DNA of 64,000 nucleotides. It comes from a virus. Below the pieces are notes generated by a model. The model worked only from the letters and a program-made list of their open reading frames with translations. It did not search any database and was not told the origin of the DNA. The position numbers and the translations under genes are program-made. Each line of letters starts with the position of its first letter. The first letter of the stretch is position 1. This document shows, piece after piece, positions 19,684-40,853 of this stretch. The DNA is taken from IMG/VR virus record IMGVR_UViG_3300000117_000007; one strand, written 5' to 3'.

Positions 19684-19898
19684 TGACTATCAAAGTTGAC
19701 GGTCATTCACATCTAATACGTGATGAAGAATCACATGCTATTGTTAATACAGATAACGAAGCATATAGATTAACATTACGTAGAAGAAGTATTGTAACTG
19801 CTCAGAGGAACGAGATAAATACATTAAAGAATGAAGTAAGTGAAATTAAAACATTATTAAAACAAGTTATAGAGAACGTAAATGGCAAAAACAGTTGA
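19683..19898 (+). CDS. Small coiled-coil hypothetical protein
   Basis: TAATG coupling to the previous gene; KVDGHSHLIRDEES.AIVNTD motif followed by a heptad pattern. Confidence 0.7.
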   Translation: MTIKVDGHSHLIRDEESHAIVNTDNEAYRLTLRRRSIVTAQRNEINTLKNEVSEIKTLLKQVIENVNGKNS

Positions 19899-21873
19899 CA
19901 ATTACAGCACAATAGAAGACTTCAGAAGAACGTACAACGAACTTGCAGTTGACGTTGGTGATATTCGTGGTTTAAGAACTACAAATCAAGCAACACTTAC
20001 AGATGCAGTAAACAGTATCGAAGATAAATCATTCTTCTTCCAAGAATTTGTGTATACTTCAGATGATACAGATGCAAACGATGGATCTGGTCCATACAAT
20101 TTCTTTGGAGCAGATATCTTTGCTAACGTCTTAAAGTATAAGAAAGATAGGGTACAAGTATTTGTTAATGGGGTTCACTTGAGTGAAGGTATTGACTATA
20201 CTGTTACGGGTCTTCAAGCAGATGCTACTTACAATCAAATACAAATTTCAAACACTTCACCATCTTTTGGATCAGGTCTAACAGACGGTGATAGATTAAC
20301 AGTTTACTCATATACAGGATCGTATCTTGGTGTAGCAGTTCAAAATACTGGCGCCCAGTTCTTCTTGCTTGATGAGACACAAACAATTTACAATAACAAT
20401 GCTAACGGTCTCATATTCAATGGTAGTAACAGTAATCTTGTAACTACATTGCAATCTGGTTTCACAATTCAAAATGAAGGTAATACTTTAGTAAATGGTG
20501 AACTTACAGTTGATACAGGACATACACTAACAGCACCTACAATTACAGACGGAATTGCAACACTATCAAGTGGTTCAATCACAAATGGTGTGAATGGTAC
20601 TTTCTCAGGTACTATTCAAGCAGAGCATCTCTATACAACAGACGATTTACAAGTTGGTGATGATGCAACAATTAGTGGAGATTTGACAGTTAATGGTGCC
20701 GTAACCTTAAACGGTAGTACAATTACTCTAGGTAATCATGCAGATGATAATGTCGTATTTAATGCAGACGTAAACACAGATATCAAACCAAATCAAACTG
20801 GTCTCGATCTTGGTTCAAGTACTCAGAAGTGGGACAACTTATATGTAACAGAAGTTCAAGGTAATATCGATGGTAACGTTTACAGTGGTAGTACTCTTGT
20901 TCTGAATAATACTACTGCTCACCTAACAGGAACAGTATCAGATATTTCAAATCACGATACAGATGATTTAACAGAAGGTTCAAGTAACTTATACTTCACT
21001 ACTGCAAGAGCAAGAGAATCTATCAGTGAAAACTCAACTCAGTTAGCATACGATAATTCAACTGGTGTATTAACATATACACAGGGCAACACTGATACTG
21101 TAGCAGAAGGAACATCTAATCTTTATTATACAAATGCTAGAGCAGATGAAAGAGTTGCTTTAGAAACAGGTGTTAATTTAGATTTATCAAATCAAGATAC
21201 AGATGAACTAGCAGAAGGAAGTTCAAATCTATATTATACAAATACTAGAGCAGATGGTAGAATTGCATTACAAGTCGGTGCTAATCTAGATTTATCAAGC
21301 AAGTCTACAACTAATTTATCTGAAGGTACAAACTTATATTACACAAATACTAGAGTAGATAATAGAATTGCCAGTGCTAGTATTGGTGATTTAGATGACG
21401 TATCTATCTCTAGCATTACGGCAGGTCAAGCACTAACATGGTCAGATTCAGCAAATGATGGTAACGGTGGATTTACACCAACAACACTAGGTAGTAGTAC
21501 AGATAGTTTTGCAGAGGGTTCAAATAACCTATACTTTACAAATGAGAGAGCAATGGACGCCGCCGCATCGATGATTACAACTGCTACTCACAGTAATATA
21601 ACAGTAAGTTATGATGACGATGCAAATACATTGGCATTTAGTGCGGCCGCACAATATGGTGACTCAGATGTCGAGGCACATATTTCAGAAGGACCTGGTA
21701 TTGATCTAGACACTTCTGGTTCAACTTTAGAAATTTCTGCTTCGGCGCAGAAAGGGGTAAAAATATCAAGTACCCATGTAGAATTAGATTATGAAGTAGT
21801 ATCGGCCTCTGGACTTTCAGGAACACCATCAGGAACAGGAAAACCAGAAGGACATCTATGGTTTGTGATATGA
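19882..21873 (+). CDS. Tail fibre-like protein with TDDLxEGSSNLYxT repeats
   Basis: Repeated (D/T)xLxEGSSNLY(F/Y)T units; C-terminal PSGTGKPEGHLWFVI motif. Confidence 0.75.
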   Translation: MAKTVDNYSTIEDFRRTYNELAVDVGDIRGLRTTNQATLTDAVNSIEDKSFFFQEFVYTSDDTDANDGSGPYNFFGADIFANVLKYKKDRVQVFVNGVHLSEGIDYTVTGLQADATYNQIQISNTSPSFGSGLTDGDRLTVYSYTGSYLGVAVQNTGAQFFLLDETQTIYNNNANGLIFNGSNSNLVTTLQSGFTIQNEGNTLVNGELTVDTGHTLTAPTITDGIATLSSGSITNGVNGTFSGTIQAEHLYTTDDLQVGDDATISGDLTVNGAVTLNGSTITLGNHADDNVVFNADVNTDIKPNQTGLDLGSSTQKWDNLYVTEVQGNIDGNVYSGSTLVLNNTTAHLTGTVSDISNHDTDDLTEGSSNLYFTTARARESISENSTQLAYDNSTGVLTYTQGNTDTVAEGTSNLYYTNARADERVALETGVNLDLSNQDTDELAEGSSNLYYTNTRADGRIALQVGANLDLSSKSTTNLSEGTNLYYTNTRVDNRIASASIGDLDDVSISSITAGQALTWSDSANDGNGGFTPTTLGSSTDSFAEGSNNLYFTNERAMDAAASMITTATHSNITVSYDDDANTLAFSAAAQYGDSDVEAHISEGPGIDLDTSGSTLEISASAQKGVKISSTHVELDYEVVSASGLSGTPSGTGKPEGHLWFVI

Positions 21874-21874
21874 T

Positions 21875-23506
21875 ATGTCAGATAAAATATATGTAAAGCA
21901 TCAACTTGCAGGCGGTAGTTTTCAGCAACCGTATAACTATCAGGTTCCAACACCTCTTAGAACTCCTGCAATTAAAAACCAAACTTATCGTCACCCGACA
22001 ATAACGCAGGTCCCTCAGACCTATATTGCAACTGGGAGAACAACTGCTAGGTATCCTTTCACATATCCATTTACAACGCAAGGAACTACTCAACAACCTA
22101 ACACGTATAATATACAAACTTCAGCACAGGGTAACACGAGAGGTAATACTCGAATTTCTGCTCAAGAAACAACACCTGCTATTGGTAACTCTAGAGTTAT
22201 TGGTAACACTAGGGCACCAATCGATGCACAGGGTACAACGATTACACGATACCCATATATTCAACCATTGATCGGGAATACTCAAGCAAACGCACAGCAA
22301 CCAAATACGTATTCTTATCAATCACCGTTTACATATGATATTCAATCACCAACACAATATAGTATACAAACTTCTGTAAATGCACAGTCGCCCTCAATTG
22401 TTGATTATTCATATCAAACATCGTTACAGCAACCTACAATTACACGTTATCCATTTACATATGAATACAATGTGCAAAATGCTACTCAAGGAAGTACTCG
22501 ATACCCATTTACTTATCCGTTTACTGGGAGTTCTACAACACCAGTAATTAAAGTAGACAATTATAATATCGATGATCAAATTCATATACCAGATGAAACT
22601 GGTACTGGTACTTCAAGTAATAACCCTATGGTTTCAACTTTGACAGCAACTACTTTGTTGAGTACTCCTCAAACAAGAGGTGATGCAATTTACTTTAGAC
22701 TTAGAAGAGTACTACCAACTACATCGGGTTATACATCTTCTAATGATTATCTAGTTCTCGAAGCAGTAAAAGATAGTGCCCAACATACTAAAACTGGTAT
22801 AAGTGTATCAGTTGCTAACAGAGAAACATCTGGACCTCCAACTGGTCATACAGGAACAACTGTTATACAGAATTATAGTTCAACAGCAACGAATAATAAT
22901 TATGTAGAAATAGCAAGATTCGGTTGTCCTGTAAGTGAAGGAGTGGTTTCTGAATTTGAAATTACATTAACACCAGACGCCACTACTACATTTAATACAA
23001 CAGTGGGATCATTGTCAAATTCTGCTATTTCTGGTTGTTCTATATCTTTTGATACTACAACAAACTCAAATGGTTTCACTACTTATGCTTTTTCTAATTC
23101 AAATACTTCACATTATAATGACTGCTTAAATGCAAAAATATATGGAAGTTCTTTGATTTCTCCAAACTCTCAGGGATTTGGTATATTAACAACATACACA
23201 TCAACGGGTACTGCTAGTTCGAGTTCATATACAGTAAGGAATTATAGAGGTATTGATATATTAGTGAAACTTAAAAAGACGGGTAGGGGAACCCATACTA
23301 CTCAGTATCCAATGAAACTAAATTTCATATACTTAGCAAGTCATATTACTGGCGGCGGAGGCGGCGGAGGCGGTGGATTCCCATCACCATTCCCAAGTAC
23401 TCCAAGTTTCCCAACGTTTGATCCGTTTAGTGATCCATTCCACCCGTTCAACTTACCTCTTGTTCAGCAGTCAGTAGAACCTCTGGAGCAACGACTAGCA
23501 GGGTAA
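21875..23506 (+). CDS. Zipper fibre chain A: repeat strand (aa ~20-218), globular domain, poly-Gly and F/P-rich tail
   Basis: PFTY/GNTR/QQPNTY repeats complementary to the 23509-24318 product; Gly9 at 23351-23377. Function is inferred. Confidence 0.7.
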   Translation: MSDKIYVKHQLAGGSFQQPYNYQVPTPLRTPAIKNQTYRHPTITQVPQTYIATGRTTARYPFTYPFTTQGTTQQPNTYNIQTSAQGNTRGNTRISAQETTPAIGNSRVIGNTRAPIDAQGTTITRYPYIQPLIGNTQANAQQPNTYSYQSPFTYDIQSPTQYSIQTSVNAQSPSIVDYSYQTSLQQPTITRYPFTYEYNVQNATQGSTRYPFTYPFTGSSTTPVIKVDNYNIDDQIHIPDETGTGTSSNNPMVSTLTATTLLSTPQTRGDAIYFRLRRVLPTTSGYTSSNDYLVLEAVKDSAQHTKTGISVSVANRETSGPPTGHTGTTVIQNYSSTATNNNYVEIARFGCPVSEGVVSEFEITLTPDATTTFNTTVGSLSNSAISGCSISFDTTTNSNGFTTYAFSNSNTSHYNDCLNAKIYGSSLISPNSQGFGILTTYTSTGTASSSSYTVRNYRGIDILVKLKKTGRGTHTTQYPMKLNFIYLASHITGGGGGGGGGFPSPFPSTPSFPTFDPFSDPFHPFNLPLVQQSVEPLEQRLAG

Positions 23507-23508
23507 TC

Positions 23509-24318
23509 ATGGCGCAATTTCAATCACAATGGACACAACCTTACTCAGTACAGAGTCCCTTTATATATCAGGGACAAGGGAGCACTAGAGGAACAACACG
23601 ATATACTTTTCAGTCACCTTCAACTGCTCAGGGTAACACAAGGGGAACTACAGACACTCCAAGTCCATATCGTCAACCAAATATTGGGTCAACAGATGCA
23701 CAAAATACTGTAATTGTACAGCAACCAAGTCGAGGAACTACACAAACACCTTCAATTGGAAACACAAGAGCAACAGTACAGGGACAAACAAGGTCACCAT
23801 ACAGATCGCCATTTACGTATGCGTATCAAGTAGATGCTAGAGGAAATACTGAGACTAGATATCCGTTTACTTTTCAATCACCGTTTACGTATCAGAATCC
23901 TATAACATACGATTTTCAGTATCAGTCGCCATATAGATCACCTGCTAGATATCCCTTTACGTACCCGTTTAGAGTACCATCGATTGGGAATACTAGATCG
24001 CCGTTTACGTATGAAATTCAAAATACAGGTAACACACGTGGTACTACACAAGTGCCTTATATATTTCAAGGCAACAGTAGAGTACCATATAATTTACAGA
24101 CTGTTTCACCTACTACATACACTGTTAGATCACCTAGCATTGTACAGTCACCAGCAATTGGCACAAGACCAATTGGTCCTGTAGCAGAAGTTAAAGCAGT
24201 ATATTTTAAAGATTCTGATGGTGTAGTAAAGAAATTAGAAAAAGGATATGTAAAAGATTCTCAAGGGACTGTAAGAAAAATACATACTGGCATCCCATTT
24301 GCCCAACTAAGCAATTAA
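23509..24318 (+). CDS. Zipper fibre chain B: complementary repeat strand plus C-terminal small beta domain
   Basis: Antiparallel complement of chain A at i+j=238; ends VYFKDSDGVVKKLEKGYVKDSQG. Confidence 0.7.
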   Translation: MAQFQSQWTQPYSVQSPFIYQGQGSTRGTTRYTFQSPSTAQGNTRGTTDTPSPYRQPNIGSTDAQNTVIVQQPSRGTTQTPSIGNTRATVQGQTRSPYRSPFTYAYQVDARGNTETRYPFTFQSPFTYQNPITYDFQYQSPYRSPARYPFTYPFRVPSIGNTRSPFTYEIQNTGNTRGTTQVPYIFQGNSRVPYNLQTVSPTTYTVRSPSIVQSPAIGTRPIGPVAEVKAVYFKDSDGVVKKLEKGYVKDSQGTVRKIHTGIPFAQLSN

Positions 24319-24928: not shown

Positions 24929-25951
24929 GTGAAACCTACATTATGGACACGTGATGAGTGGTCCCCTTTGCAAGAATGCATTTTAGGGACTGCAAAAGAG
25001 TTCAACCTCACGAAAGACATCTCACATTATGTCGTTGATTGGCATGATAGTTCTTGGTCTGATTATATTGAAGCAGATTTCGAATACATCACTAAAGACA
25101 TTATTGCTGAAGCAGAAGCAGACTTAAACTACTTTCAAACAGTGCTTAGGACTCACGGTGTTGTCGTCCATCGCCCGCAAACATCTTTGACATGTAATCA
25201 GATCAGTAATGGTATGTGGGAAACAGGCCAGATGCAATTTTACAATGTCAGAGACATTGCTTTTGTTATCGACAATACCATTGTAGAGTCAGCAATGTCA
25301 GTTCGTACAAGGTATTTTGAACAGTATAGTATACAACATATCTTCAAACAAAAATTCTTAGAAGGTGCTAAATGGTTGTCTATGCCTAAACCAAAACTAT
25401 CAGATGATCACTATTCATTAAATGTATTTCCAGATATACCAACGCATGAACCATTACTTGATGGTGCAAACATATTGAGAATGGGAGATGATTTATTAGT
25501 AAGCACAAATTTAACTGCTAATAAAATGGGTGTTGAATGGTTAAGAAGACATTTTCCTAATCATAGAATACATGAGATTGATCTCACACATAAAGTTACA
25601 TCTCATATTGATACAACATTTACAGTATTAAAAGAAGGTGTAGTATTGATTAATGAAGAGAGAATTAAAGAAGATGAAGTTCCAGATCTTTTTAAAGATT
25701 GGACAAAAGTATTCATCACTAAAGACATTATAGCAGATGTGCAACCAAAAGTCAAGAGAGGAATCGCATCTAAATGGGTTGGTATGAATATGTTTTCTAT
25801 AGATCCCAATAATGTTTGTGTAGATGCATCACAAGAACGTCTTATGGAAGTGATATCACAATATGTAAATCCTATACCTATACCTATGAAGCATTCTAGA
25901 ATTCTGGGTGGAGGATTACATTGTTGTACTTTAGACTTATTAAGAAATTAA
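24929..25951 (+). CDS. Amidinotransferase (glycine/inosamine-phosphate amidinotransferase family, pentein fold)
   Basis: EWSPLQECILG, VRD, LDGAN, SHIDTT and C-terminal GGGLHCCTLDL (catalytic Asp/His/Cys); GTG start. Confidence 0.88.
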   Translation: MKPTLWTRDEWSPLQECILGTAKEFNLTKDISHYVVDWHDSSWSDYIEADFEYITKDIIAEAEADLNYFQTVLRTHGVVVHRPQTSLTCNQISNGMWETGQMQFYNVRDIAFVIDNTIVESAMSVRTRYFEQYSIQHIFKQKFLEGAKWLSMPKPKLSDDHYSLNVFPDIPTHEPLLDGANILRMGDDLLVSTNLTANKMGVEWLRRHFPNHRIHEIDLTHKVTSHIDTTFTVLKEGVVLINEERIKEDEVPDLFKDWTKVFITKDIIADVQPKVKRGIASKWVGMNMFSIDPNNVCVDASQERLMEVISQYVNPIPIPMKHSRILGGGLHCCTLDLLRN

Positions 25952-29019: not shown

Positions 29020-29027
29020 TATAAATA
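29020..29027 (+). promoter_or_regulatory. Late promoter TATAAATA
   Basis: Exact consensus directly after the terminator. Confidence 0.75.
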
Positions 29028-29935: not shown

Positions 29936-30196
29936 ATGGCAACACAAAACTCATTTGTTATTGAATACGGACTCACAGTAGGGTCCACTGAAGTAATCAA
30001 CTCCTCAGGTAAAATCATAGCAAGTGCATTGTCAAATATTGACGCCGATGATATTTCCGAAGGATCAACGAATACATACTTCACAAACGCAAAGGCAAGA
30101 GGTGCTATAAGTTTAGCATCAGGCGAAACAAATTTAAACTACAATTCTACCACTGGAGAATTTTCATTACCAACAGTTGACGGAGGAACCATTTAA
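29936..30196 (+). CDS. Small fibre protein ending in DGGTI
   Basis: One EGSTNTYFT repeat; N-terminus paralogous to the next gene. Confidence 0.65.
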   Translation: MATQNSFVIEYGLTVGSTEVINSSGKIIASALSNIDADDISEGSTNTYFTNAKARGAISLASGETNLNYNSTTGEFSLPTVDGGTI

Positions 30197-32061
30197 TGTC
30201 AAGCAAAAATTTTATAATCAAAAATGGACTTTCAGTTGGAAGTAATGAGGTAATCGACAGTAATGGTAATATTGTAGCAAGTAACCTGAGTGAAACAATT
30301 GACGATAGAGTCAATACACTTTTAACAGCAGGTTCAGGAATCTCATTGTCATATAATGACAGTGCAAATACTTTAACAATTACAGGTAATGTCGGAGACA
30401 TCACAGGAGTTAACGCAGGTGCTGGTTTAACAGGAACTGCAACTTCAGGTGATGCAACACTAAACATTGGTGCTGGTACTGGTATCACTGTAAACGCAGA
30501 TGATATCGCAGTTAATATGTCTGCATTCGATACAGACAACCTTTCAGAAGGTTCTTCAAACTTATACTTTTCAAACGAGAGAGTTGATGATAGAGTAAAT
30601 GCATTAATCACAGCAGGTTCTAACATTACAACATCATATGATGATGCGGCAGGAACATTAACAATTAATGCTACTGAAGATAATCTTTCTAATAATGATA
30701 CAGATGATTTAACAGAAGGTTCAACAAACTTGTATCATACGACAGCAAGAGCAAGAGCATCTATCAGTGCTGGTGGCGATCTAAGTTATAACTCTTCAAC
30801 AGGTGTCATCTCATTTACAAACGATGCTGGTGATATATCATCAGTTGTTGCTGGAGATGGTTTAACAGGTGGTGGTACATCAGGAGATGTAACACTAAAC
30901 GTAGTTGCTGGTACAGGTATTACTGCAAATGCAAATGACATTGCAGTTAATATGGGTGCTTTTGATACAGACAATCTATCAGAAGGGTCATCTAATCTTT
31001 ACCACACTTCAGCAAGAGTAGATTCAAGAATTGCATTACAAGTCGGTGCTAATCTAAGTTTAGCAAATAAAGATACCGATGATCTAGGAGAAGGTTCAAG
31101 TAACCTTTATCATACAGCAGAAAGAGTTTCAGATGTTGTTGGTGCCATGGTATCATCTAACACTGAAAGTGGCATTAGTGTCACATATGACGATAATGAT
31201 AATACACTAGACTTTGCAGTAAGTCTATCACCATTTAGTACAACTAATTTATCTGAAGGTTCTAATCTATACTTTACTAACGCAAGAGCAGATGCTAGAG
31301 TTTCAGCAACTTTACCAGACACAGATTCATTAAGTGAAGGTTCAAGTAACCTTTACCACACTACAGCAAGAGTTAGAGGGGCAGTATCTGCCTCTGGAGA
31401 TTTATCTTATAACTCTTCTACTGGTGTATTCTCATACTCAGAACCTACAATGTATGCTGATTCAGATGCCAGAGGTGCTATCAGTGTAACAGATAGTGGT
31501 GGTGACGGATCGTTAACATACAATTCGGGTACAGGTGTTATCACATATAACGGACCAAGTTCATCTGAAGTAAGATCACACTTCTCAGCAGGAACAGGGG
31601 TTGGATTATCAGGCGGTTCAATTAGTATCGGTCAGGCAGTTTCAACCAGCAGTAACGTAACTTTTAATGACTTAGTTGTTTCAGGTGACTTAACTGTTAA
31701 TGGTTCAACTTCAACAGTATCATCAACTAATACAACTATCGAAGATACGTTGTTAGAGTTAGGAACAGGAACTACTGGTAGTCCTTCAAATGATGCTGGT
31801 ATCGTCATCGAAAGAGGTGACGAGTCAAATGTCTTTATGGGATGGGACGATAGTGCAAGTAGATTTGTAGTTGCAACAACAACTGCAACTGGATCTTCTA
31901 CAGGTGCTTTATCGTTAACTGAGGCCAACTTTAGGGCATCTCAGATTACAACATCATACGCATCTAATAGTGGTGGTGTTGCAAGGAATGTGTATCAATC
32001 AACTTCTGCTCCAACTGGTTCAGACGGTGCAGTTGGTGATATGTGGATTACATATTCTTAA
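30196..32061 (+). CDS. Tail fibre-like protein with TDxLSEGSSNLY repeats
   Basis: Repeats shared with 19882-21873; C-terminal SAPTGSDGAVGDMWITYS. Confidence 0.75.
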   Translation: MSSKNFIIKNGLSVGSNEVIDSNGNIVASNLSETIDDRVNTLLTAGSGISLSYNDSANTLTITGNVGDITGVNAGAGLTGTATSGDATLNIGAGTGITVNADDIAVNMSAFDTDNLSEGSSNLYFSNERVDDRVNALITAGSNITTSYDDAAGTLTINATEDNLSNNDTDDLTEGSTNLYHTTARARASISAGGDLSYNSSTGVISFTNDAGDISSVVAGDGLTGGGTSGDVTLNVVAGTGITANANDIAVNMGAFDTDNLSEGSSNLYHTSARVDSRIALQVGANLSLANKDTDDLGEGSSNLYHTAERVSDVVGAMVSSNTESGISVTYDDNDNTLDFAVSLSPFSTTNLSEGSNLYFTNARADARVSATLPDTDSLSEGSSNLYHTTARVRGAVSASGDLSYNSSTGVFSYSEPTMYADSDARGAISVTDSGGDGSLTYNSGTGVITYNGPSSSEVRSHFSAGTGVGLSGGSISIGQAVSTSSNVTFNDLVVSGDLTVNGSTSTVSSTNTTIEDTLLELGTGTTGSPSNDAGIVIERGDESNVFMGWDDSASRFVVATTTATGSSTGALSLTEANFRASQITTSYASNSGGVARNVYQSTSAPTGSDGAVGDMWITYS

Positions 32062-32088: not shown

Positions 32089-33846
32089 ATGGCGTCAGGC
32101 AATCAGAAAATAAAAACCCCTTCGGGTTGGAATAGCACAAGAGGTGCTTGGGTAAAGACTGGTGGTACAACTTGGAAGTCAGTAGATCAAATCTATGTCA
32201 AGACTCCTACAGGTTGGAACGATGCATCTGGTCAAGAGAACGCACAGCAACCATATCCTTATATTGCCAATGCTCAAAATCCTGTTATAAGACAACAAGT
32301 ACAACCATATCCGTACATTGCAAATGCTCAAAATCCGGTTATAAGACAGCAAACGCAACCGTATCCTTACATTGCGAATGCACAGAATCCGTTCATACGT
32401 CAACAGACACAACCTTATCCTTATATTGCGAATGCACAGAATCCATTTATAAGAAATAGACAAACGCCGTTTACGTATCAGTATCAGTCCCCAAGTACAT
32501 ATGCTACTCAAGGAAATACACAGGTACCTTATGATCATCAATCACCATTTACTTACGAAACGCAAGGGTCGACAAGAGGTAATACTCAAACACCATTTAC
32601 TTACCCATACATTCAACCACTGATCGGGAATACTCAAGAGTCAAACTCGTATATACATCAGGTTGCAACTACTGGTAATACAAGATCACCATTTACATAT
32701 GCATATCAAGTAGATGCTAGAGGCAATACACAAGAACCGAATATCTATAATTATCAAGTAACAACTACTGGTAATACAAGATCGCCGTTTACATACGCAT
32801 ACCAAGTTGATGCTAGAGGTAGTACACAAGAACCGAATACTTACATCTATCAAGTATCAACTACTGGTCAGACAAGGTCACCATTTACTTACCCTTTCAT
32901 TGCTAACGCAACAGGGAATACTCAGGAACCTAATACATATTCATATGGTGTTCCTAATATTGGTAATACAAGATCACCATTTACATACGCATTCCAAGTA
33001 GATGCACAAGGTGTAACTGCTGGAGTTACTAGATCACCATTTACATATGCATATCAAGTAGATGCTAGAGGAAGTACGCAACAACCTAATACATATAATA
33101 TACAAACAGCAACGATTGGTCAGACAAGGTCACCATTCACGTATGCATATCAAGTAGATGCTAGAGGAAGTACTCAGCAACCTAATACTTACATTTATCA
33201 AGTTACTACAACTGGTAATACAAGATCACCATTCACGTATGCATATCAAGTAGATGCTAGAGGAAGTACTCAACAACCAAACACTTACCCATTTACTGTA
33301 AATGCTAATGGGTCAACTAGATCGCCATTTACTTACCCTTATATCGCCAATGCTACTGGTAATACTAGATCACCATTTACGTACCCTTACATAGCAAACG
33401 CAACAGGGAATACTAGATCACCATTTAGATACCCTTATATACAACCTTTAATTGGGAACACCACAGGAAATACTACGGGTAACACAAGAGTTAATGCACA
33501 GGAACCTAATACAACACCTACAACATATCCGTATACAGTAAATGCTCAAGAACCAAACAGAACACCTACAACATATCCGTATACAGTAAATGCACAGCAA
33601 CCAGTGCCATATCCGTTTACATACCCATACACAGTAAACGCAACAGGGAATTCACGAAATCCATTTACATACCCGTATACAGTCAATGCAACAGGGAATT
33701 CAATCGGTAGTACAAGATCACCATACAGATTCCCATTTAGAACACCGACTAGAGTACCATGGAGAGTCACAGCACAGCAACCCAGTCAGGGAAGATTCCC
33801 ATTCTTCTTTAGTCCAGGAGGAGGTTTACCACAATTCTTAAAATAA
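32089..33846 (+). CDS. Zipper fibre chain C: N-terminal Trp-containing beta domain plus ~515-aa repeat strand
   Basis: KTPSGW..WVKTGG..YVKTPTGW, then 18-aa and 16-aa repeats complementary to 33866-35488. Confidence 0.72.
   Translation: MASGNQKIKTPSGWNSTRGAWVKTGGTTWKSVDQIYVKTPTGWNDASGQENAQQPYPYIANAQNPVIRQQVQPYPYIANAQNPVIRQQTQPYPYIANAQNPFIRQQTQPYPYIANAQNPFIRNRQTPFTYQYQSPSTYATQGNTQVPYDHQSPFTYETQGSTRGNTQTPFTYPYIQPLIGNTQESNSYIHQVATTGNTRSPFTYAYQVDARGNTQEPNIYNYQVTTTGNTRSPFTYAYQVDARGSTQEPNTYIYQVSTTGQTRSPFTYPFIANATGNTQEPNTYSYGVPNIGNTRSPFTYAFQVDAQGVTAGVTRSPFTYAYQVDARGSTQQPNTYNIQTATIGQTRSPFTYAYQVDARGSTQQPNTYIYQVTTTGNTRSPFTYAYQVDARGSTQQPNTYPFTVNANGSTRSPFTYPYIANATGNTRSPFTYPYIANATGNTRSPFRYPYIQPLIGNTTGNTTGNTRVNAQEPNTTPTTYPYTVNAQEPNRTPTTYPYTVNAQQPVPYPFTYPYTVNATGNSRNPFTYPYTVNATGNSIGSTRSPYRFPFRTPTRVPWRVTAQQPSQGRFPFFFSPGGGLPQFLK
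32251..32466 (+). repeat. 4 x 54-bp tandem repeat encoding PYPYIANAQNP(V/F)IRQQTQ
   Basis: Visible in DNA and translation. Confidence 0.9.
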
Positions 33847-33865
33847 GAATTAAGGAAAAGTAATT

Positions 33866-35488
33866 ATGGCACAAGGACCTTATCAATATAGAGCAACAGT
33901 TAGAAGTCCAACAGACTACCCTGTGTTTATCAATGCACAAGGGAGTGCCCAACAACCGAATGGATATCCGTTCACTTACCCGTATATTGCTAACGCAACA
34001 GGGAACAGTAGACAACCATTCACTTACCCATATATTGCTAACGCAACAGGGAGTACAATTGGTGCTACTAGATCCCCTTACATAGCAAACGCAACTGGTA
34101 ATACAAGGGTACCATTTAGATCCCCTTACATAGCAAACGCAACTGGTAACACGATTGTACCATTTAGGTCGCCATATAGACAACCTACTACTTATCCATT
34201 TACTTATCCGTTTACATATGCGTATCAAGTAGATGCTAGAGGTAGTACACAGCAACCTAATACTTACCCATTTACTGTAAATGCTACAGGGAGCACACAG
34301 CAACCTAACACTTACCCATTTACTGTAAATGCTACAGGGAATACTCAAGAACCAAATATTTACCCTTATATCGCCAATGCTACTGGTAATACTAGATCAC
34401 CATTTAGATATCCGTATATTCAACCGTTAATCGGGAATACACAAGAACCAAATACGTATATCTTCCAAACAGCAACAATTGGTAATACTAGATCGCCGTT
34501 TAGATACCCATATATTCAACCTCTAATCGGGAATACACAAGAACCTAATACTTACATATATCAGACACCAAGTATTGGTAACACTAGATCACCATTTAGA
34601 TACCCTTACATTCAACCTCTAATCGGGAATACACAAGAGGCAAATCCGTATGCATTTAGATATCCGTATATTCAACCACTAATTGGGAATACGCAAGAAC
34701 CTAACACATACTCATTCCAAGTTACAACTATTGGTAATACTAGATCGCCTTTCACTTACCCATATACAGTGAATGCTACAGGGAATACTCAGGAACCAAA
34801 TACGTATATCTATCAAACAGCAACGATTGGTAACACTAGATCGCCGTTTAGATACCCATATATACAACCTCTGATTGGGAATACACAAGAACCTAACACA
34901 TATATTTTCCAGTCACCAGCATCTGGTAGCACAAGATCGCCGTTTAGATATCCGTTTATTCAACCGTTGATCGGGTCTACTCAAGAACCTAATACTTACA
35001 TATATCAAGTTTCTACACCAGGTATAACTAGATCGCCATTTACATATGCGTATCAAGTAGATGCAACAGGTAACACTAGACAACCTAACAGATATCCATT
35101 TACATATCCGTACATTGCAACTGGTCAGCAACCTAATATTAGACAGCAGACACAACCGTATCCTTATATTGCTAACGCAGTGAATCCGTTCATTAGAGAT
35201 GCTAGACAACCAGCAACATATAATCACAGATCACCTAGCACTTACGCAACTCAAGGGAATACACAAGTGCCATATAATCATAGATCCCCAAGTACATATG
35301 CTACTCAAGGAAATACTCAAGTGCCTTATAACCATAGATCCCCAAGTACATATGCTACTCAAGGAACTACAAGGGTACCATACAGTCATAGATCCCCAAG
35401 TACATATGCAAGACAGGGTAGAAATCCTGTGATCAGATGGGATGGAGACTTAGATAACCAATGGCCAGGTTCTCCAATTACGTCATAA
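33866..35488 (+). CDS. Zipper fibre chain D: antiparallel complement of chain C
   Basis: SD AAGGA; complementary to chain C at i+j=574. Confidence 0.72.
   Translation: MAQGPYQYRATVRSPTDYPVFINAQGSAQQPNGYPFTYPYIANATGNSRQPFTYPYIANATGSTIGATRSPYIANATGNTRVPFRSPYIANATGNTIVPFRSPYRQPTTYPFTYPFTYAYQVDARGSTQQPNTYPFTVNATGSTQQPNTYPFTVNATGNTQEPNIYPYIANATGNTRSPFRYPYIQPLIGNTQEPNTYIFQTATIGNTRSPFRYPYIQPLIGNTQEPNTYIYQTPSIGNTRSPFRYPYIQPLIGNTQEANPYAFRYPYIQPLIGNTQEPNTYSFQVTTIGNTRSPFTYPYTVNATGNTQEPNTYIYQTATIGNTRSPFRYPYIQPLIGNTQEPNTYIFQSPASGSTRSPFRYPFIQPLIGSTQEPNTYIYQVSTPGITRSPFTYAYQVDATGNTRQPNRYPFTYPYIATGQQPNIRQQTQPYPYIANAVNPFIRDARQPATYNHRSPSTYATQGNTQVPYNHRSPSTYATQGNTQVPYNHRSPSTYATQGTTRVPYSHRSPSTYARQGRNPVIRWDGDLDNQWPGSPITS
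35219..35420 (+). repeat. About 4 x 54-bp tandem repeat encoding YNHRSPSTYATQGNTQVP
   Basis: Visible directly; mirrors the 4 x 18-aa block at the start of chain C. Confidence 0.9.
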
Positions 35489-35522: not shown

Positions 35523-37103
35523 ATGAAACCAGATTACGAAACCACCCTTGCTCAATTAAAAGACCTAGACAAAGGCGATAAGACTTATGTACATCTAGGC
35601 AGTTTTGATGCTGATAAAGAGTATAAAGAAACAGATGCATATAAACTATTGAAGTATGTCTTTGAGAATAAATTAGATTCACTTAAACGTGTGAAATGGA
35701 AAGACATATCAAAACTGCAAAGTACTAGACTAGGCAAATTTGGCGATCAAATGAAATTGAATAGTTATGGTATGATGCAACATCAATCATATATCTACAA
35801 TCATTATCTTCCATTTGGTTACACACAAATAATGGATCCTGAAAGAAATATTAAGGGTCAGATGATTATGGATTTTATGAATCATGATGGAGAATATGAA
35901 AGTCTTGCTAAGTATTCTAACTTCGAAGGATTGACATGTGATCAAAATACAGACTATGTGAGAGATCAATTAGGAAGTTTCTATTATCATGCGGCCAAAG
36001 GTCACTGGTTAATTCACAATTTACAGAAAGAGGGATTGTGGTTTCCAATTCAAGGACAGATCAATAAGAATGGTGACAGTGCTAGTTTACAAATACACCC
36101 AGGTTCTATACGTACTCCAGTATTTGAGTTATTGAATGATGATAATTTAGAAGTTCTTTTATACAATGACAAAGATATGTTTCCAGATGTTGCACCATTA
36201 GAACTAGATGAATACTTAGAACAGATAATAGAAGAAGTAGATATTCATGGATCACATTCTAATATATCTTTTGCTTACAGTATGGGTTATATTGAAACTA
36301 ATTTAAGTCTTCAATCTAAAAGAGATTTCAGAAAAGAAGTATACGACTTCAATAAAAAAGTTAGTGAACAAGTTAAAGGTAAAAGAGTAACTATCTACAT
36401 TGGTTATGATAGTCGTCATTCTAATTTAGCAGAGCAAAGTAAAGCATTGATAGAAAGAATGATTGAAAAGAATACTTCATGTTTGGGTGGCGTAAACACG
36501 TCTGACCCAATCAAAGCAGTATCAGACTGGAAACCAGAAGTTAAACTTTTAGATATATCAAAAATACCAGAGTATACTAGAGAGTATGCTAATCAATCAA
36601 CAGAATTTACATATAGTAGATTTCTTATCCCTCATTTAGAAAATTATGAAGGGTATAGTATATTCGTAGACGATGACTACATCTTTAGAAAGTCTATACT
36701 ACCATTCTTTTTATTTTTAAATCCCGACGATGCAGTAGCATGTGTTCAATATGATTTTGATAATCATGGCGAGACAAAGTTTGATGGAGAAAAGAACGTT
36801 TCTTATCCTAAAAAACTATGGTCAAGTTTCATGGTATTCAATAACGGACACGAAGACTGTAAAAAACTAACACCAGAAACTGTAAACTCAGAATCTGGTA
36901 AGTATCTACATCAATTTGAGTGGACAGATAAGATCAGTAAAATACCAGACTTTCATTTTGTGACAGAAGGGTATGATCACTTAGATGATAAACCACAAGC
37001 ATTTGCGATACATTATACACGTGGTGGTCCATGGATAAAAGACATGGATACCAGCAACATAAATATGTTAAACATATATGATATGTTAACAGACACCGAT
37101 TAG
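35523..37103 (+). CDS. Two-domain protein: unknown N-terminal domain (possibly ParB/Srx-like) plus GT-A glycosyltransferase
   Basis: C-terminal half has IYIGYDSR, STEFTYSRFLIP, IFVDDD (DxD), YPKKLWSSFMVFN, IHYTRGGPW; CATAAATA at 35484. Confidence 0.75.
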   Translation: MKPDYETTLAQLKDLDKGDKTYVHLGSFDADKEYKETDAYKLLKYVFENKLDSLKRVKWKDISKLQSTRLGKFGDQMKLNSYGMMQHQSYIYNHYLPFGYTQIMDPERNIKGQMIMDFMNHDGEYESLAKYSNFEGLTCDQNTDYVRDQLGSFYYHAAKGHWLIHNLQKEGLWFPIQGQINKNGDSASLQIHPGSIRTPVFELLNDDNLEVLLYNDKDMFPDVAPLELDEYLEQIIEEVDIHGSHSNISFAYSMGYIETNLSLQSKRDFRKEVYDFNKKVSEQVKGKRVTIYIGYDSRHSNLAEQSKALIERMIEKNTSCLGGVNTSDPIKAVSDWKPEVKLLDISKIPEYTREYANQSTEFTYSRFLIPHLENYEGYSIFVDDDYIFRKSILPFFLFLNPDDAVACVQYDFDNHGETKFDGEKNVSYPKKLWSSFMVFNNGHEDCKKLTPETVNSESGKYLHQFEWTDKISKIPDFHFVTEGYDHLDDKPQAFAIHYTRGGPWIKDMDTSNINMLNIYDMLTDTD

Positions 37104-37145: not shown

Positions 37146-37697
37146 ATGAATATGTTTATATACGATGAAAATGGAAATCTAACTATTCGAAAAGAGAGTG
37201 GTTTAGAATACTCATTTGACAATACAGATAAACCAGTCCTTGGTTTTGACTACGATGTACTAATCTATGATGAAATAGAAGTTAAGATTACTAATTGGGA
37301 AGAGGGTAAACACTTTGACGATCAAGTCAAACAGAACCTAACTCCTGAAGAATGTGATTCTATTGAGTTGTATATTAAGAACTCAGAACCACCTATGGGG
37401 TTCTCATTGAATCAACAACTATCAGAGAGATTGAATATGGCATGTAAGGATTACATTGTCCAAGCAATTCAAGAATATGGTTTTACTGATTTAACAGAGA
37501 TCACTTATGCTGGTCGTGAAGGTTCAAATCACCCTCTAAGATCAGATGCTAGATATTGCTTAGATTATTGTGATACTGTTTGGGGTGTTTATATGAATAT
37601 TGTTGAAGAAATTAGAAACACTAGAGAAGATACACTAAAAAGTTTCGAAGAGTATCTTGCACCAATTCCTGGTGCTTCACGGAACTTAATGAGATAA
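37146..37697 (+). CDS. Hypothetical protein, possibly tail-fibre assembly chaperone-like
   Basis: C-terminal AIQEYGF..YAG..ARYCLDYCDTVW pattern recalls small fibre-associated phage proteins. Confidence 0.45.
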   Translation: MNMFIYDENGNLTIRKESGLEYSFDNTDKPVLGFDYDVLIYDEIEVKITNWEEGKHFDDQVKQNLTPEECDSIELYIKNSEPPMGFSLNQQLSERLNMACKDYIVQAIQEYGFTDLTEITYAGREGSNHPLRSDARYCLDYCDTVWGVYMNIVEEIRNTREDTLKSFEEYLAPIPGASRNLMR

Positions 37698-38398
37698 TGC
37701 AGTGTCGTCCGCTTGACGAACCTATCGAACAGTTAAGTGTTGAATATATAGATCAACCATTTCAAATATCAGAACTACCTTTAGATAGAGTATACGTCTT
37801 AGATAACTATTTGCCATTGACCGTATGGCGAAAGATGGATCAGTTATGTACAGATAATATGATCTGGTCTAAAACAAATCAAGTTGGTTCACAAAGTCCT
37901 ACAGGATTACCTTCTCATAGTTTTTGGGGTTCAAGTATTTTTCAAAAGAATAGACGACCTGATACTATCAATTCAGGCGTAATTCATTTCATGGATATCA
38001 TCGACAAGAAGATTCAAAATGATTTTGGATTTGAGTGGTTAAGATTTCAATATATGGGTTTAAATTCACAGACAGCAGGTTGTCATGGTACAACTCATTC
38101 AGATTGTGATAAAGATGATGTTTGGAATTTATCGTTTCTTTTTTACTATAATAGTTTTTGGAATCCAGCATGGGGTGGTAGTTTAAGATTTTATGACTCA
38201 CCTCAACAAGGATTAGATGGTCGTGATGAACACATAGAGAATCATCAACTCGCAGAAGTTGAATTCAAACCAAATAGATTGCTTATGTTTGATGGTAGAA
38301 TACCACACGGAGCAGATGCACCCAAAGAACGTGCCAGATATATGGACAGAAGGTCGTTAGTTTTGAGGGGCGATGAAGTAAAACTCACTCATGTATAA
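37697..38398 (+). CDS. 2OG-Fe(II) oxygenase (prolyl-hydroxylase-like)
   Basis: HSD...WGGSLRFY...FDGRIPH...R iron and 2OG motifs. Confidence 0.85.
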   Translation: MQCRPLDEPIEQLSVEYIDQPFQISELPLDRVYVLDNYLPLTVWRKMDQLCTDNMIWSKTNQVGSQSPTGLPSHSFWGSSIFQKNRRPDTINSGVIHFMDIIDKKIQNDFGFEWLRFQYMGLNSQTAGCHGTTHSDCDKDDVWNLSFLFYYNSFWNPAWGGSLRFYDSPQQGLDGRDEHIENHQLAEVEFKPNRLLMFDGRIPHGADAPKERARYMDRRSLVLRGDEVKLTHV

Positions 38399-38954
38399 AG
38401 TAGTAGACAGTCAGTTCATAATCGATAATCATGCAGAGTTAGAGTACACTGCAACACAAATATGTAAACAGTATATGCCCTTTCTAAGTCAAGATGAATA
38501 TGCAGGTACATTTAAAAAGGGTGGTGGAGACTATACAGAAAATCACGATACATATAATATATGGTCACTACTTAGAGATTTTAAAATTTGGCAACCAGTA
38601 TATGAAGAAGTCACTGATACTATAAAAAGTTGCTATGACGGTCCGAGTGATTATCTTTATCTAAAATCATGGATCAATTATAGTGAGGGTAAAGAGTTAT
38701 TAGGTTGGCATGGTCATAATTGTAAGTTACATGGATATGTTTCAATAACTCCTCATAAAACTACTACTGAGTTTGAAAGATTTGAAGTAGAAAATAAAAT
38801 CGGTAGAATTTATGTAGGACCAGGTATATATTTACATAGAGTAAATATTGTTAAACCATTTACAGGAAAAAGAATAACAATTGGTTTTGATGTATATGAC
38901 AACGTAGATCATTCTAGAAGACCGCTAAATACAATACCAATAAGAGTACACTAA
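38391..38954 (+). CDS. 2OG-Fe(II) oxygenase-like protein
   Basis: SWIN..WHGH...LHRV..RITIGFD. Confidence 0.7.
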   Translation: MYKVVDSQFIIDNHAELEYTATQICKQYMPFLSQDEYAGTFKKGGGDYTENHDTYNIWSLLRDFKIWQPVYEEVTDTIKSCYDGPSDYLYLKSWINYSEGKELLGWHGHNCKLHGYVSITPHKTTTEFERFEVENKIGRIYVGPGIYLHRVNIVKPFTGKRITIGFDVYDNVDHSRRPLNTIPIRVH

Positions 38955-39856
38955 TGCCACATATAGATTTCATAACAAACAGTAAAGATACACTTAGAGA
39001 TTTCAAACCAGTTCTTGCAAAATCTATTATGCCCGAATGGTGGAAGAAAGGAAAAATTGATCAGTATATACGTGGTGAATTTGTTCAAACTATCAGAGCA
39101 TGTCCTGCCATGGACGATTGGACTAAATCAGGATATTACATCGTAGCAAATAGAGACTTTAAAATTCTTGCTGGTGAAGAAAGAATACATGAAGAAGCAA
39201 ATACTATTGGTGCTTTAGATACATCAGGACATTTGTATGAATCACAGTCACACCCTAAAGATCAGATGTTTAATACATTTGAATATCTAGGCGATGATGG
39301 ACCAGTTAAAGATGCATTTAAAATGAGAAATCCATGGAACGTCAAAACACCTCCTGGTTATTCGACTTTATACTTAGACCCGTTCTTATTTCAAGGAAGA
39401 GCATTTGCGGCATGGCAAGGCATTATAGATACTGATAAGATGCATGTCAATCAAGACAACGCACAGATAATATTTTATCCAAGATTCAATACAAGTTTTA
39501 CAATTAAAAAGGGTACACCTTTAGTTCAATGTATTCCATTTAAAAGAGAAGAGTGGCATGCATCTTTTCAATATCAAGACCCTAAAACATTTCATGAAAA
39601 TAGATCTGGTCCTAAAGAACATGGTGGAATATCTAACGAAGATGTATTGTCAGTAGATTATTGGAATAGATGTGGTAGATACGACCAAGATGTTATGGAC
39701 GGAAAAACTCAGAGAGATGAAAGAAAAAAAGGCACTATGAAAATGGGTCCTTATAGAACTGAAGGTTATTGGACAGAAAAGTCAAAGTTCTTTAAGACTA
39801 TGGAAGAAGTTACACCACCACCTGAGTGTCCTATGCACAAGAGTGAGGAAGAATAA
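38954..39856 (+). CDS. Conserved phage hypothetical protein (DUF6065-like / dUTPase-like fold)
   Basis: TIRACPAMDD, PWNVKTPPGYSTLY, GIIDTD, IKKGTPLVQCIPFKRE. Confidence 0.55.
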   Translation: MPHIDFITNSKDTLRDFKPVLAKSIMPEWWKKGKIDQYIRGEFVQTIRACPAMDDWTKSGYYIVANRDFKILAGEERIHEEANTIGALDTSGHLYESQSHPKDQMFNTFEYLGDDGPVKDAFKMRNPWNVKTPPGYSTLYLDPFLFQGRAFAAWQGIIDTDKMHVNQDNAQIIFYPRFNTSFTIKKGTPLVQCIPFKREEWHASFQYQDPKTFHENRSGPKEHGGISNEDVLSVDYWNRCGRYDQDVMDGKTQRDERKKGTMKMGPYRTEGYWTEKSKFFKTMEEVTPPPECPMHKSEEE

Positions 39857-40563
39857 TGAGTACAGTACACTATCTATTTCCTAGTTTTGTTTTTGAAAGA
39901 GATTTCTTAGGCAGACATCAACATGTCGAACCATCTATGAACGAAGACTACTTCGAGCAGTTAAAAAATGAAATCGATTCTATGAGAAAGAAAGATCCAG
40001 TTGGTAGAAGAGTTTCAAATGCATATACAGGTTGGCAATCACATGATGGTTGCGATAATAATCCTGCTTTTATCAAATGTATAAGATCAATCAAACGTAT
40101 GATGAGAGACGAAGTAATGTTGCACTTAGGTGTAAAGAGTGGGTTTCAAGTAGAGTTTCATAATTGTTGGGCAAACATAAACGATAATATGGCATGGAAT
40201 AGACCACATTTACACAATGGTTGCTTTATGAGTGGTGTCTTATATATTAAAGCAGATGGTGATGAAGGAAACTTCAGTGCAATCGATACAGATGCAAGAG
40301 TTGTTGGTGCCCATCCTGTCATGCCAAAAATGAAAGAGTCAGTACAGTTTCAACCTAGAACTGGTACGATGTATTTATTTCCTAGTGGGTTGATGCATAT
40401 GGTCGAACCTAATCTAACTGATAAAGATAGATACAGTATATCTTTTAACATGAATGTTGTTCAGAATAATTTAAAGATTGGCAGTGTCGACGAGAACGAT
40501 TTTACTGAAGATAATCATAGTTTATCATGGGAATTAGACGAGCAGGGCAAACTGATTATCTAA
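39856..40563 (+). CDS. 2OG-Fe(II) oxygenase (TIGR02466-like)
   Basis: WANIN..PHLH..SGVLYI..LFPSGLMHMVEPN..RYSISFN. Confidence 0.85.
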   Translation: MSTVHYLFPSFVFERDFLGRHQHVEPSMNEDYFEQLKNEIDSMRKKDPVGRRVSNAYTGWQSHDGCDNNPAFIKCIRSIKRMMRDEVMLHLGVKSGFQVEFHNCWANINDNMAWNRPHLHNGCFMSGVLYIKADGDEGNFSAIDTDARVVGAHPVMPKMKESVQFQPRTGTMYLFPSGLMHMVEPNLTDKDRYSISFNMNVVQNNLKIGSVDENDFTEDNHSLSWELDEQGKLII

Positions 40564-40845: not shown

Positions 40846-40853
40846 TATAAATA
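40846..40853 (+). promoter_or_regulatory. Late promoter TATAAATA
   Basis: Exact consensus upstream of gp13. Confidence 0.8.

What the first reader, a model, noticed from the sequence alone, without database searches (positions are those of the whole stretch)
32089..35488. Two adjacent genes encode antiparallel-complementary proteins: a candidate ~515-residue sequence-coded beta-zipper fibre
Seen in sequence (hand count): align chain C (32089-33846, 585 aa) antiparallel to chain D (33866-35488, 540 aa) so that residue i faces j with i+j=574, without gaps. Then 28 of 29 Gly in C (aa 142-568) face a Tyr in D, and 30 of 31 Gly in D (aa 4-518) face Tyr/Phe in C. The two exceptions are the only odd-numbered Gly. 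Whole modules pair as letters of a code: AYQVDARG with PYIQPLIG, PYIANATG with P(Y/F)TVNATG, TRSPF with TQ(E/Q)PN, and PYPYIANAQNPxIRQQTQ x4 at the start of C with NHRSPSTYATQGNTQVPY x4 at the end of D. Irregularities are mirrored too: the extra VTAG in C faces an extra ANPY in D, and GNTTGNTTGNT in C faces YPFTYPFTY in D. Gly and aromatics sit at even positions and Pro at odd positions, giving large-small pairs (Y-G, Y/F-A) on one face. Established: alternating patterns and cross-strand Gly-aromatic pairs typify antiparallel beta-ribbons, and the T4 gp37 needle is built from long antiparallel strands. Inference: C and D form an obligate heterodimeric ribbon, perhaps trimerised into a needle, roughly 170 nm long if fully extended. 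I do not know of a described phage fibre encoded as two complementary genes.
Basis: partly seen in the sequence, partly recalled or inferred. Interest (0 to 1): 0.96.

Follow-up and report, generated by a model that had tools for sequence, protein, structure and literature searches.

The report
Mirror-coded two-chain phage fibre zipper
Two neighbouring genes of an uncultured marine T4-like phage encode proteins that match each other residue by residue when one is read backwards, and relatives change both genes together or fuse them into one fold-back chain, so the two chains almost certainly zip head-to-tail into one very long thin fibre, a design I found described nowhere.

Summary
Observation confirmed and far beyond chance. 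C and D pair ungapped over about 520 residues at i+j=574. In 91 of 101 distinct homologous pairs (D 230-562 aa) the register is ungapped and fixed to the same end anchors; the 10 exceptions are off by whole repeat units or broken. Relatives carry mirrored indels in mirrored order, and C picks its own D in 44 of 45 cases. Pro sits on one parity only (3938 vs 0). The window holds a second, non-cross-reacting pair (21875-24318). Sister phages encode C+D as one self-complementary chain at the same locus, and a gp13 tree suggests the split is derived. Best reading: a two-stranded antiparallel beta-ribbon, about 170 nm if straight, hung on the tip of the fibre encoded upstream. The trimer-needle idea is not favoured: no His-x-His motifs, and three cap repeats in one chain. 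No family, solved structure, isolate or paper was found. This scan has noted the same design on other genomes.

The parts
30196..32061 (+). Upstream fibre-like structural gene (621 aa); its conserved C-terminal motif (..P....GDxW..) is the proposed docking site of the zipper
   Evidence: PHROG 697 structural protein E 3e-53, PHROG 2952 minor tail protein E 1e-15; its last 60 aa are found beside the zipper in 46/46 split and 12/12 fused loci. Docking itself is inferred.
32089..32238 (+). Chain C residues 1-50: Trp-rich cap with three xVKTxxGW-like repeats
   Evidence: Highly conserved; always N-terminal; modelled as short beta-strands at pLDDT 61; no fold match
32239..33804 (+). Chain C residues 51-572: outgoing zipper strand
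   Evidence: Ungapped complement of D 2-523 at i+j=574
33805..33846 (+). Chain C short Gly-rich distal tail; in relatives this place carries a Hint domain (30 of 101) or a globular domain of about 150 aa
33866..35434 (+). Chain D residues 1-523: returning zipper strand
35435..35488 (+). Chain D conserved C-terminal WDG..WP tail, lying beside the cap of C at the proximal end
   Evidence: Register = WDG position + 49 (or 50 with a one-residue cap insertion) in 91 full-length pairs; same tail ends the fused proteins
19882..21873 (+). Second fibre-like gene (663 aa), ending in the related GHxW motif; proposed anchor of the second zipper
   Evidence: PHROG 697 E 4e-33; motif conserved before the A/B pair in the loci examined
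21875..23506 (+). Chain A (543 aa) of a second zipper pair: one cap-like repeat, zipper strand 20-225, then a distal globular domain
   Evidence: Complement of B at i+j=238, 25/25 Gly face Tyr/Phe; score 179 vs shuffled max -94; no signal against C or D
23509..24318 (+). Chain B (269 aa): zipper strand 13-218, then two cap-like repeats at the C-terminus
29020..29027 (+). T4-type late promoter motif TATAAATA heading the run of genes that includes the fibre, C and D; the next such motif is at 40846, before gp13
   Evidence: Sequence match only
35523..37103 (+). Glycosyltransferase-like gene, present after D in 45/46 split loci and 0/12 fused loci
   Evidence: Weak Pfam GT8 E 0.01; tblastn to phage glycosyltransferases E 3e-25; linkage
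37146..37697 (+). 183-aa gene of no known family, always next to the zipper locus; candidate assembly chaperone (inference)
   Evidence: 45/46 split and 12/12 fused loci; absent from the matching Melnitz region; no isolate match
37697..40563 (+). Cluster with two 2OG-Fe(II) oxygenases and two unnamed genes; candidate Pro-modifying enzymes (inference only)
   Evidence: PF13640 E 9e-8, PF13759 E 1e-19; first oxygenase linked in 44/46 split and 12/12 fused loci

Best explanation
C and D are the two halves of one very long fold-back beta-hairpin that has been cut at its turn. They zip antiparallel, 1:1, into a two-stranded twisted ribbon of about 520 residue pairs (about 170 nm if straight; 70-180 nm across the family). 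Even positions would be the hydrogen-bonded pairs, where a large residue packs over a small one (Tyr/Phe over Gly or Ala, also Tyr-Arg, Glu-Ser, His-Asn). Odd positions would be the non-hydrogen-bonded pairs, where Pro faces Gln or Arg and shields the free edges against further strands. The irregular order of 6-, 8- and 10-residue units works as a barcode that allows one register and one partner. At the base, the three-repeat Trp cap of C and the WDG tail of D dock the duplex on the C-terminal tip of the fibre encoded upstream. At the far end, the freed C-terminus of C carries a variable tip: short tail, Hint domain or globular domain. The product is a thin extension that lengthens the phage's reach. 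Shown: complementarity, co-variation, partner specificity, fusion. Inferred: physical binding, ribbon geometry, stoichiometry, docking, place on the virion.
For: Single best offset, with shuffle and cross-validation controls. 91/101 homologous pairs ungapped and end-anchored, scored with a matrix learned on the window only, including L002 with a different 40-residue repeat (66/67 Gly face aromatics). Mirrored indels in mirrored order, e.g. 54,30,24 nt in C vs 24,30,54 nt in D (L053/L068) and a 24-nt loss plus 60-nt gain mirrored (L217/L219). Length rule independent of any score: Hint Cys position minus length of D = 37-49 in 30/30. Own partner best in 44/45. Over 14,287 facing pairs: Pro 3938 odd and 0 even, Pro-Pro 4, aromatic-aromatic 1 on the even face, Gly faces Tyr/Phe in 89%. 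Pro fits edge, non-H-bonded sites (PMC2134964); Tyr over an H-bonded Gly sets strand register (bioRxiv 2020.10.22.346965). Natural single chains with the C cap first and the D tail last at the same locus, self-complementary with palindromic unit lengths. gp13 tree: fused family 2 outside, fused family 1 sister to all split forms (98/92; split clade 98/99). Second orthogonal pair with the cap split 1+2 between its chains. No DNA-level inversion behind the match.
Against: No structural confirmation. 10 of 101 pairs are unmatched or broken; six are 99-100% identical to a matched sibling but for one repeat-sized gap, which fits assembly collapse but could be real tolerance of loops; L001, L229 and L237 have no such twin. 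Register 574 vs 576 is not settled by Gly counts. In fused family 2 the code differs (many Pro-Pro pairs at the anchor-equivalent register) and mutual information peaks three residues away, so its geometry may not be a plain ribbon. A naked 170-nm two-stranded ribbon has no solved precedent that I found, and may be floppy. No natural fusion of fibre tip and cap was found, so docking rests on gene order and co-conservation.
Confidence: 0.75

Rival explanations
1. The chains pair as above, but three C-D duplexes bundle round the fibre axis into a six-stranded needle like T4 gp37 D11, with Tyr/Phe over Gly forming a shared core.
For: The anchor is probably a trimer (inference from fibre-like families). 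In the T4 needle G921 packs on F970 of another subunit in the trimer core (PMC6957217). A few fused relatives have mirrored His-x-His motifs (L276-L279, 4-6 each).
Against: No His-x-His in the window's C or D and only 2 in 46 split pairs, against seven iron sites in T4. Pro at about 28% of one parity blocks edge H-bonding. The aromatic face is also rich in Ser, Asn, Gln, Arg, His, Glu, unlike a buried core. Three cap repeats in one chain, or 1+2 across A and B, suit one duplex per trimer.
Confidence: 0.13
2. The duplex is real and antiparallel but is not a regular beta-ribbon: for example a Pro-kinked or bulged double helix, or a string of small two-chain beads.
For: Very high Pro content with 6-8 residue spacing; the parity puzzle in fused family 2; AlphaFold found no strands, though that model is uninformative.
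Against: Strict two-residue periodicity (99% of Pro spacings are even) and position-by-position pairs match the known statistics of antiparallel strands.
Confidence: 0.07
3. The duplex is not a tail-fibre extension but a neck whisker, head filament or assembly ruler; or D is a transient template for C that is not in the virion.
For: The locus ends just before neck gene gp13, where T4 has its whisker gene wac (own knowledge); the anchor's best PHROG is filed under head and packaging. No proteomics exist.
Against: Fused relatives make the two strands one chain, so D is no separate chaperone there; variable distal domains are typical of host-contact tips; both pairs follow fibre-like genes with the same end motif.
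Confidence: 0.04
4. The match is a by-product of repeat periodicity, shared ancestry of C and D, or an inverted duplication of DNA, with no protein contact.
For: C and D share modules and are 45% identical in parallel; self-pairing of either chain reaches about 40% of the cognate score.
Against: No inverted DNA match (identity 17-30% in register; best minus-strand hit 15 nt, E 0.35). Shuffles fail. Mirrored, order-reversed indels in two separate genes and partner specificity cannot come from periodicity.
Confidence: 0.01

Closest known systems
Needle (domain D11) of the T4 long tail fibre protein gp37 (PMC6957217, PMC9603124)
   Same: A phage fibre tip in which a chain runs out and turns back, both ends at the base; Gly packs against an aromatic residue of another strand (G921-F970).
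   Different: T4: homotrimer of one gene, stem arms of about 50 residues, 20 nm, seven His-bound irons, inserted in a collar domain. Here: two genes (or one fused chain), arms of 200-545 residues, no His-x-His in the window, no collar, Pro on one parity, and a repeat barcode with mirrored indels.
gp38 adhesin on gp37 of T-even phages (Salmonella phage S16, PDB 6F45; PMC6851490)
   Same: A separately encoded protein, next gene after the fibre, with a small Trp-rich N-terminal domain of three-fold character proposed to cap a trimeric fibre, and a variable distal end.
   Different: gp38 docks by a three-helix bundle and is a compact monomer with a polyglycine sandwich.
Tandem beta-zippers and other long antiparallel heterodimers (fibronectin-binding proteins, telethonin-titin, alpha/beta-spectrin; own knowledge, not tested)
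   Same: Two chains meet antiparallel in a fixed register.
   Different: Those add a strand to folded domains or pair helical bundles. None, to my knowledge, is a bare strand-strand duplex with a residue-level code over 500 residues whose two genes expand and contract together.
Mortise-tenon / aromatic rescue of Gly in beta-barrels (bioRxiv 2020.10.22.346965)
   Same: Tyr packed over a hydrogen-bonded Gly partner helps set strand register.
   Different: A local motif used once or twice per barrel; here it recurs 58 times along one duplex as one letter of a wider code.

Membership tests
T4 gp37-type needle | Chain runs out and returns, both ends proximal | tested here: met
   By sequence only: fused relatives are self-complementary; C N-terminus lies beside D C-terminus
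T4 gp37-type needle | His motifs binding a column of iron ions | tested here: not met
   0 His-x-His in window C and D; 2 in 46 split pairs; 4-6 only in L276-L279
T4 gp37-type needle | Insertion in a collar domain at the end of a single fibre gene; sequence homology | tested here: not met
   Separate genes; no collar or fibre family in Pfam, PHROGs, NCBIfam; no PDB sequence match
T4 gp37-type needle | Trimeric six-stranded assembly | not testable with these tools
   Complex prediction unavailable; sequence arguments lean against it
T-even gp38 adhesin | Encoded directly after the fibre gene, Trp-rich N-terminal attachment domain | tested here: met
   46/46 loci
T-even gp38 adhesin | Three-helix attachment bundle | tested here: not met
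   Model has four short strands and no helix, pLDDT 61; no match to 6F45 by sequence or fold
T-even gp38 adhesin | Polyglycine sandwich of about ten Gly-rich motifs | tested here: not met
   Only one short Gly run at the distal end
T-even gp38 adhesin | Monomer bound to a trimer tip; binds the host receptor | not testable with these tools
   Needs a structure and binding assays
Two-stranded antiparallel beta-ribbon | Two-residue alternation with Pro confined to one pair type and Gly-aromatic pairs to the other | tested here: met
   Pro 3938 vs 0; Gly 638 even (89% facing Tyr/Phe) vs 81 odd
Two-stranded antiparallel beta-ribbon | Continuous inter-strand hydrogen bonds in a 3D structure | tested here: inconclusive
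   AlphaFold2 on a read-through hairpin from L018 with 12 rows gave pLDDT 37, no usable model

The most novel reading that the evidence does not exclude
A widespread group of uncultured marine T4-like phages builds fibres from protein duplexes that follow a base-pair-like amino-acid code: two separately encoded strands, hundreds of residues long, find one partner and one register by a barcode of short units; length is tuned by paired indels; several orthogonal duplexes coexist in one virion; and the system arose by cutting a giant single-chain hairpin at its turn.
Probability: 0.75. Interest if true: 0.93.

Novelty: categorically new. Interest (0 to 1): 0.88.

Why it matters
If the duplex is real, it is a natural case of protein-protein recognition that can be read straight from sequence like a nucleic-acid stem: a pairing table, partner specificity and compensatory indels. 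It offers 14,000 aligned cross-strand pairs for the long-standing question of what fixes beta-strand register, and a ready alphabet for length-programmable, orthogonal protein rods. It also points to an unrecognised way in which ocean phages extend their reach to hosts in dilute water. The claim is cheap to test with short mirrored fragments.

Tried and rejected
The cap model (pLDDT 61) matched nothing in PDB or BFVD. No whole genome is held. No isolated phage among 50,697 records has C, the cap, the fibre end or the 183-aa gene (BLAST's low-complexity filter weakens). Atlas searches gave only unnamed viral clusters under 0.8 or nothing. Pfam hits Rhodopsin_N and Keratin_B2 are compositional and rejected. 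Weak PDB hits to designed Pizza and barrel proteins are rejected. Self-pairing of C or D, parallel pairing and DNA inversion were tested and rejected. My motif-based estimate of where C's repeats end was unreliable (r 0.67) and was replaced by the length rule. L249 did not beat its shuffles (a two-residue shift breaks the ungapped test) and L253 was borderline. Four paper searches for such a fibre found none; the library lacks most subscription papers, and Hutchinson 1998 was not held. Three hits in bacterial genome bins are probably binned phage contigs and were not taken as host evidence.
Full report
Setting. The window is the virion gene block of a T4-like phage: baseplate wedge, tail sheath, terminase and major head protein are all matched, and its gp13 neck protein is 52-54% identical to those of the marine phages Melnitz and Mosig. 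Related loci come from IMG/VR and metagenome assemblies, several of them TARA. No isolate carries the genes in question. C (32089-33846) and D (33866-35488) lie after a run of fibre-like genes and before a glycosyltransferase-like gene, 2OG-Fe(II) oxygenases and gp13.

The observation. The offset 574 is the best of all offsets by Gly-aromatic count (58), by Gly-aromatic minus other Gly pairs (52) and by mutual information (1.51). Shuffling D's Gly-delimited modules gives at most 16 against 52. Shuffling only among modules of equal length, which keeps the Gly spacing, gives 1.23 +/- 0.05 against 1.51, so module content matters as well as spacing. A pair matrix learned on one half of the duplex finds 574 on the other half with more than twice the next score. 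One caveat: 576 scores 56 on the Gly count because of Tyr-x-Tyr, so the exact hydrogen-bond register needs a structure. The match is not a DNA artefact: C and D share modules on the same strand, but there is no inverted match.

Homologous pairs. I collected 101 distinct complete C/D pairs and scored them with the matrix learned on the window alone. In 91 the best alignment is one ungapped diagonal over nearly all of D, and its offset equals the position of D's terminal WDG motif plus 49, or plus 50 where the cap has one extra residue, while D ranges from 230 to 562 residues. L002 has a different 40-residue repeat, yet 66 of 67 Gly face an aromatic residue. Close relatives differ by indels of equal size in both genes and in reverse order: 264/264 nt (L027/L028), 48/48 (L166/L168, L039/L076), 60+60/60+60 (L228/L039), 54,30,24 vs 24,30,54 (L053/L068). 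A score-free check agrees: in the 30 C proteins with a Hint domain, its first Cys lies 37-49 residues beyond the length of D. Among 45 non-redundant pairs, 44 C chains score best with their own D, and 44 D chains with their own C. Ten pairs do not match. One has stops in C. Six are 99-100% identical to a matched sibling except for one repeat-sized gap, which suggests assembly collapse or a very recent slip; three (L001, L229, L237) are unexplained.

The code. Over 14,287 facing pairs, even positions hold Ala-Phe, Ala-Tyr, Arg-Tyr, Glu-Ser, His-Asn, Gly-Tyr, Gln-Thr, Gln-Ser, Val-Tyr and Gly-Phe; odd positions hold Pro-Gln, Pro-Arg, Asn-Thr, Ile-Gln, Ile-Asn, Ser-Thr and Asp-Ile. Pro occurs 3938 times on odd and never on even positions; two aromatics face each other once on the even face, two Pro four times. 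[quoted passage not shown] Pro is tolerated at non-H-bonded sites of edge strands (PMC2134964), and Tyr over an H-bonded Gly helps set register (bioRxiv 2020.10.22.346965). The parity here fits that scheme, and the Pro density implies that the outer edges take no further strand. This is inference; the fold attempt failed.

A second pair. Genes 21875-23506 (A) and 23509-24318 (B) obey the same matrix at i+j=238: 25 of 25 Gly face Tyr/Phe, all 46 Pro are odd, score 179 against a shuffled maximum of -94. A and B give no signal against C or D. An A/B pair is present in 18 other loci, with a constant end-anchored offset in the 17 where it could be measured. Both pairs follow a fibre-like gene with a related C-terminal motif. 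C begins with three similar Trp-bearing repeats; in A/B one such repeat opens A and two close B. I read this as a pseudo-three-fold cap that joins one duplex to a trimeric fibre tip, by analogy with monomeric gp38 on trimeric gp37 (PMC6851490). It is not gp38 by fold or sequence.

Natural fusions. A search with the cap found divergent members, whose loci encode a single protein of 396-604 residues that begins with C's cap and ends with D's WDG tail, between the same fibre gene and the same 183-aa and oxygenase genes. L252 folds back at exactly the window's anchor offset, with the same Gly-aromatic and Pro-Gln/Arg pairs, and beats all 300 shuffles under a matrix from the split pairs. A second fused family has mirrored unit lengths (L254: 10,10,8,10,8,10x8,8,12x4, a central turn region, then the same series in reverse) and cross-validates within the family, far above shuffles, though its alphabet differs and its exact register is open. 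On a gp13 tree rooted with four isolates, fused family 2 branches first and fused family 1 is sister to all split forms (98/92; split clade 98/99). The simplest history is an ancestral giant hairpin cut once at its turn; this rests on one linked gene and was not put to a topology test. The cut frees C's distal end, which in relatives carries a short tail (as here), a Hint domain or a globular domain.

How it most likely works. After late expression (promoter motif at 29020) C and D zip from matched ends into a ribbon of about 520 pairs, 170 nm if straight, docked by the cap on the upstream fibre, with the variable end outermost. The barcode prevents slipped and crossed pairing among the four similar chains of the phage. 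The linked 183-aa gene, oxygenases and glycosyltransferase may chaperone or modify the Pro-rich chains; only their linkage is shown. A trimeric needle remains possible but lacks the His-iron sites of T4 gp37 (PMC6957217).

Novelty and verdict. C and D match no family in Pfam, PHROGs or NCBIfam beyond compositional noise, no solved structure, and no paper in the searched library. They work like a hugely extended fold-back fibre tip but fail the membership tests for the gp37 needle and for gp38. Earlier notes of this scan report the same design on other genomes; they are unchecked and I did not count them as support. The sequence evidence for a coded antiparallel duplex is about as strong as sequence evidence can be (about 0.95 for physical pairing); the full structural and functional model stands at about 0.75 until tested at the bench. 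Interest 0.88.

Noticed in passing
window 21875-24318: Second, orthogonal zipper pair (A/B) with the same code, the cap split 1+2 between chains and a distal domain of about 280 aa with no family or Atlas match.
   Followed up: yes
L249-L279 (e.g. L252 6001-7242, L257 6001-7599): Single-chain, self-complementary versions of C+D at the same locus, in two families with different repeat alphabets.
   Followed up: yes
L276-L279 (e.g. L277 6001-7815): Mirrored His-x-His motifs on both arms of the fused hairpin, possibly metal sites.
   Followed up: partly
L002 6001-8262 and about 30 other loci: C ends in a Gly run followed by a Hint domain (Cys first, His-Asn near the end) and a short tail; Hint-less forms end in a Gly run plus a similar short tail, which looks like a spliced product.
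   Followed up: partly
L086 2406-2693, L087 11487-11774: A 95-aa gene sits between C and D in forms where C carries a globular distal domain; complementarity is kept across it.
   Followed up: partly
window 24929-25951: Amidinotransferase/dimethylargininase-like gene (weak NCBIfam hits, E 3e-4) just after the A/B pair, with its own late-promoter motif downstream; could modify Arg. Not seen at this place in L006 or L012.
   Followed up: no
window 12925-19683: 2252-aa DUF4815/PHROG 358-type structural protein with an internal Pro-Glu/Pro-Asp-rich linker near residues 1550-1620.
   Followed up: no
window 35523-37103: Two-part protein whose C-terminal half is glycosyltransferase-like; present with split pairs (45/46) and absent from fused ones (0/12).
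   Followed up: partly
L017 5727-7490: C is interrupted by in-frame stops while D is intact and the proximal part still pairs at the standard offset; sequencing error or a broken gene.
   Followed up: no
L246, L247, L248: Zipper loci inside bacterial genome bins (Sphingobacteriales, Rhodobacterales, Flavobacteriales); L247 has the same lengths and register as L002. Probably binned phage contigs; host unknown.
   Followed up: no
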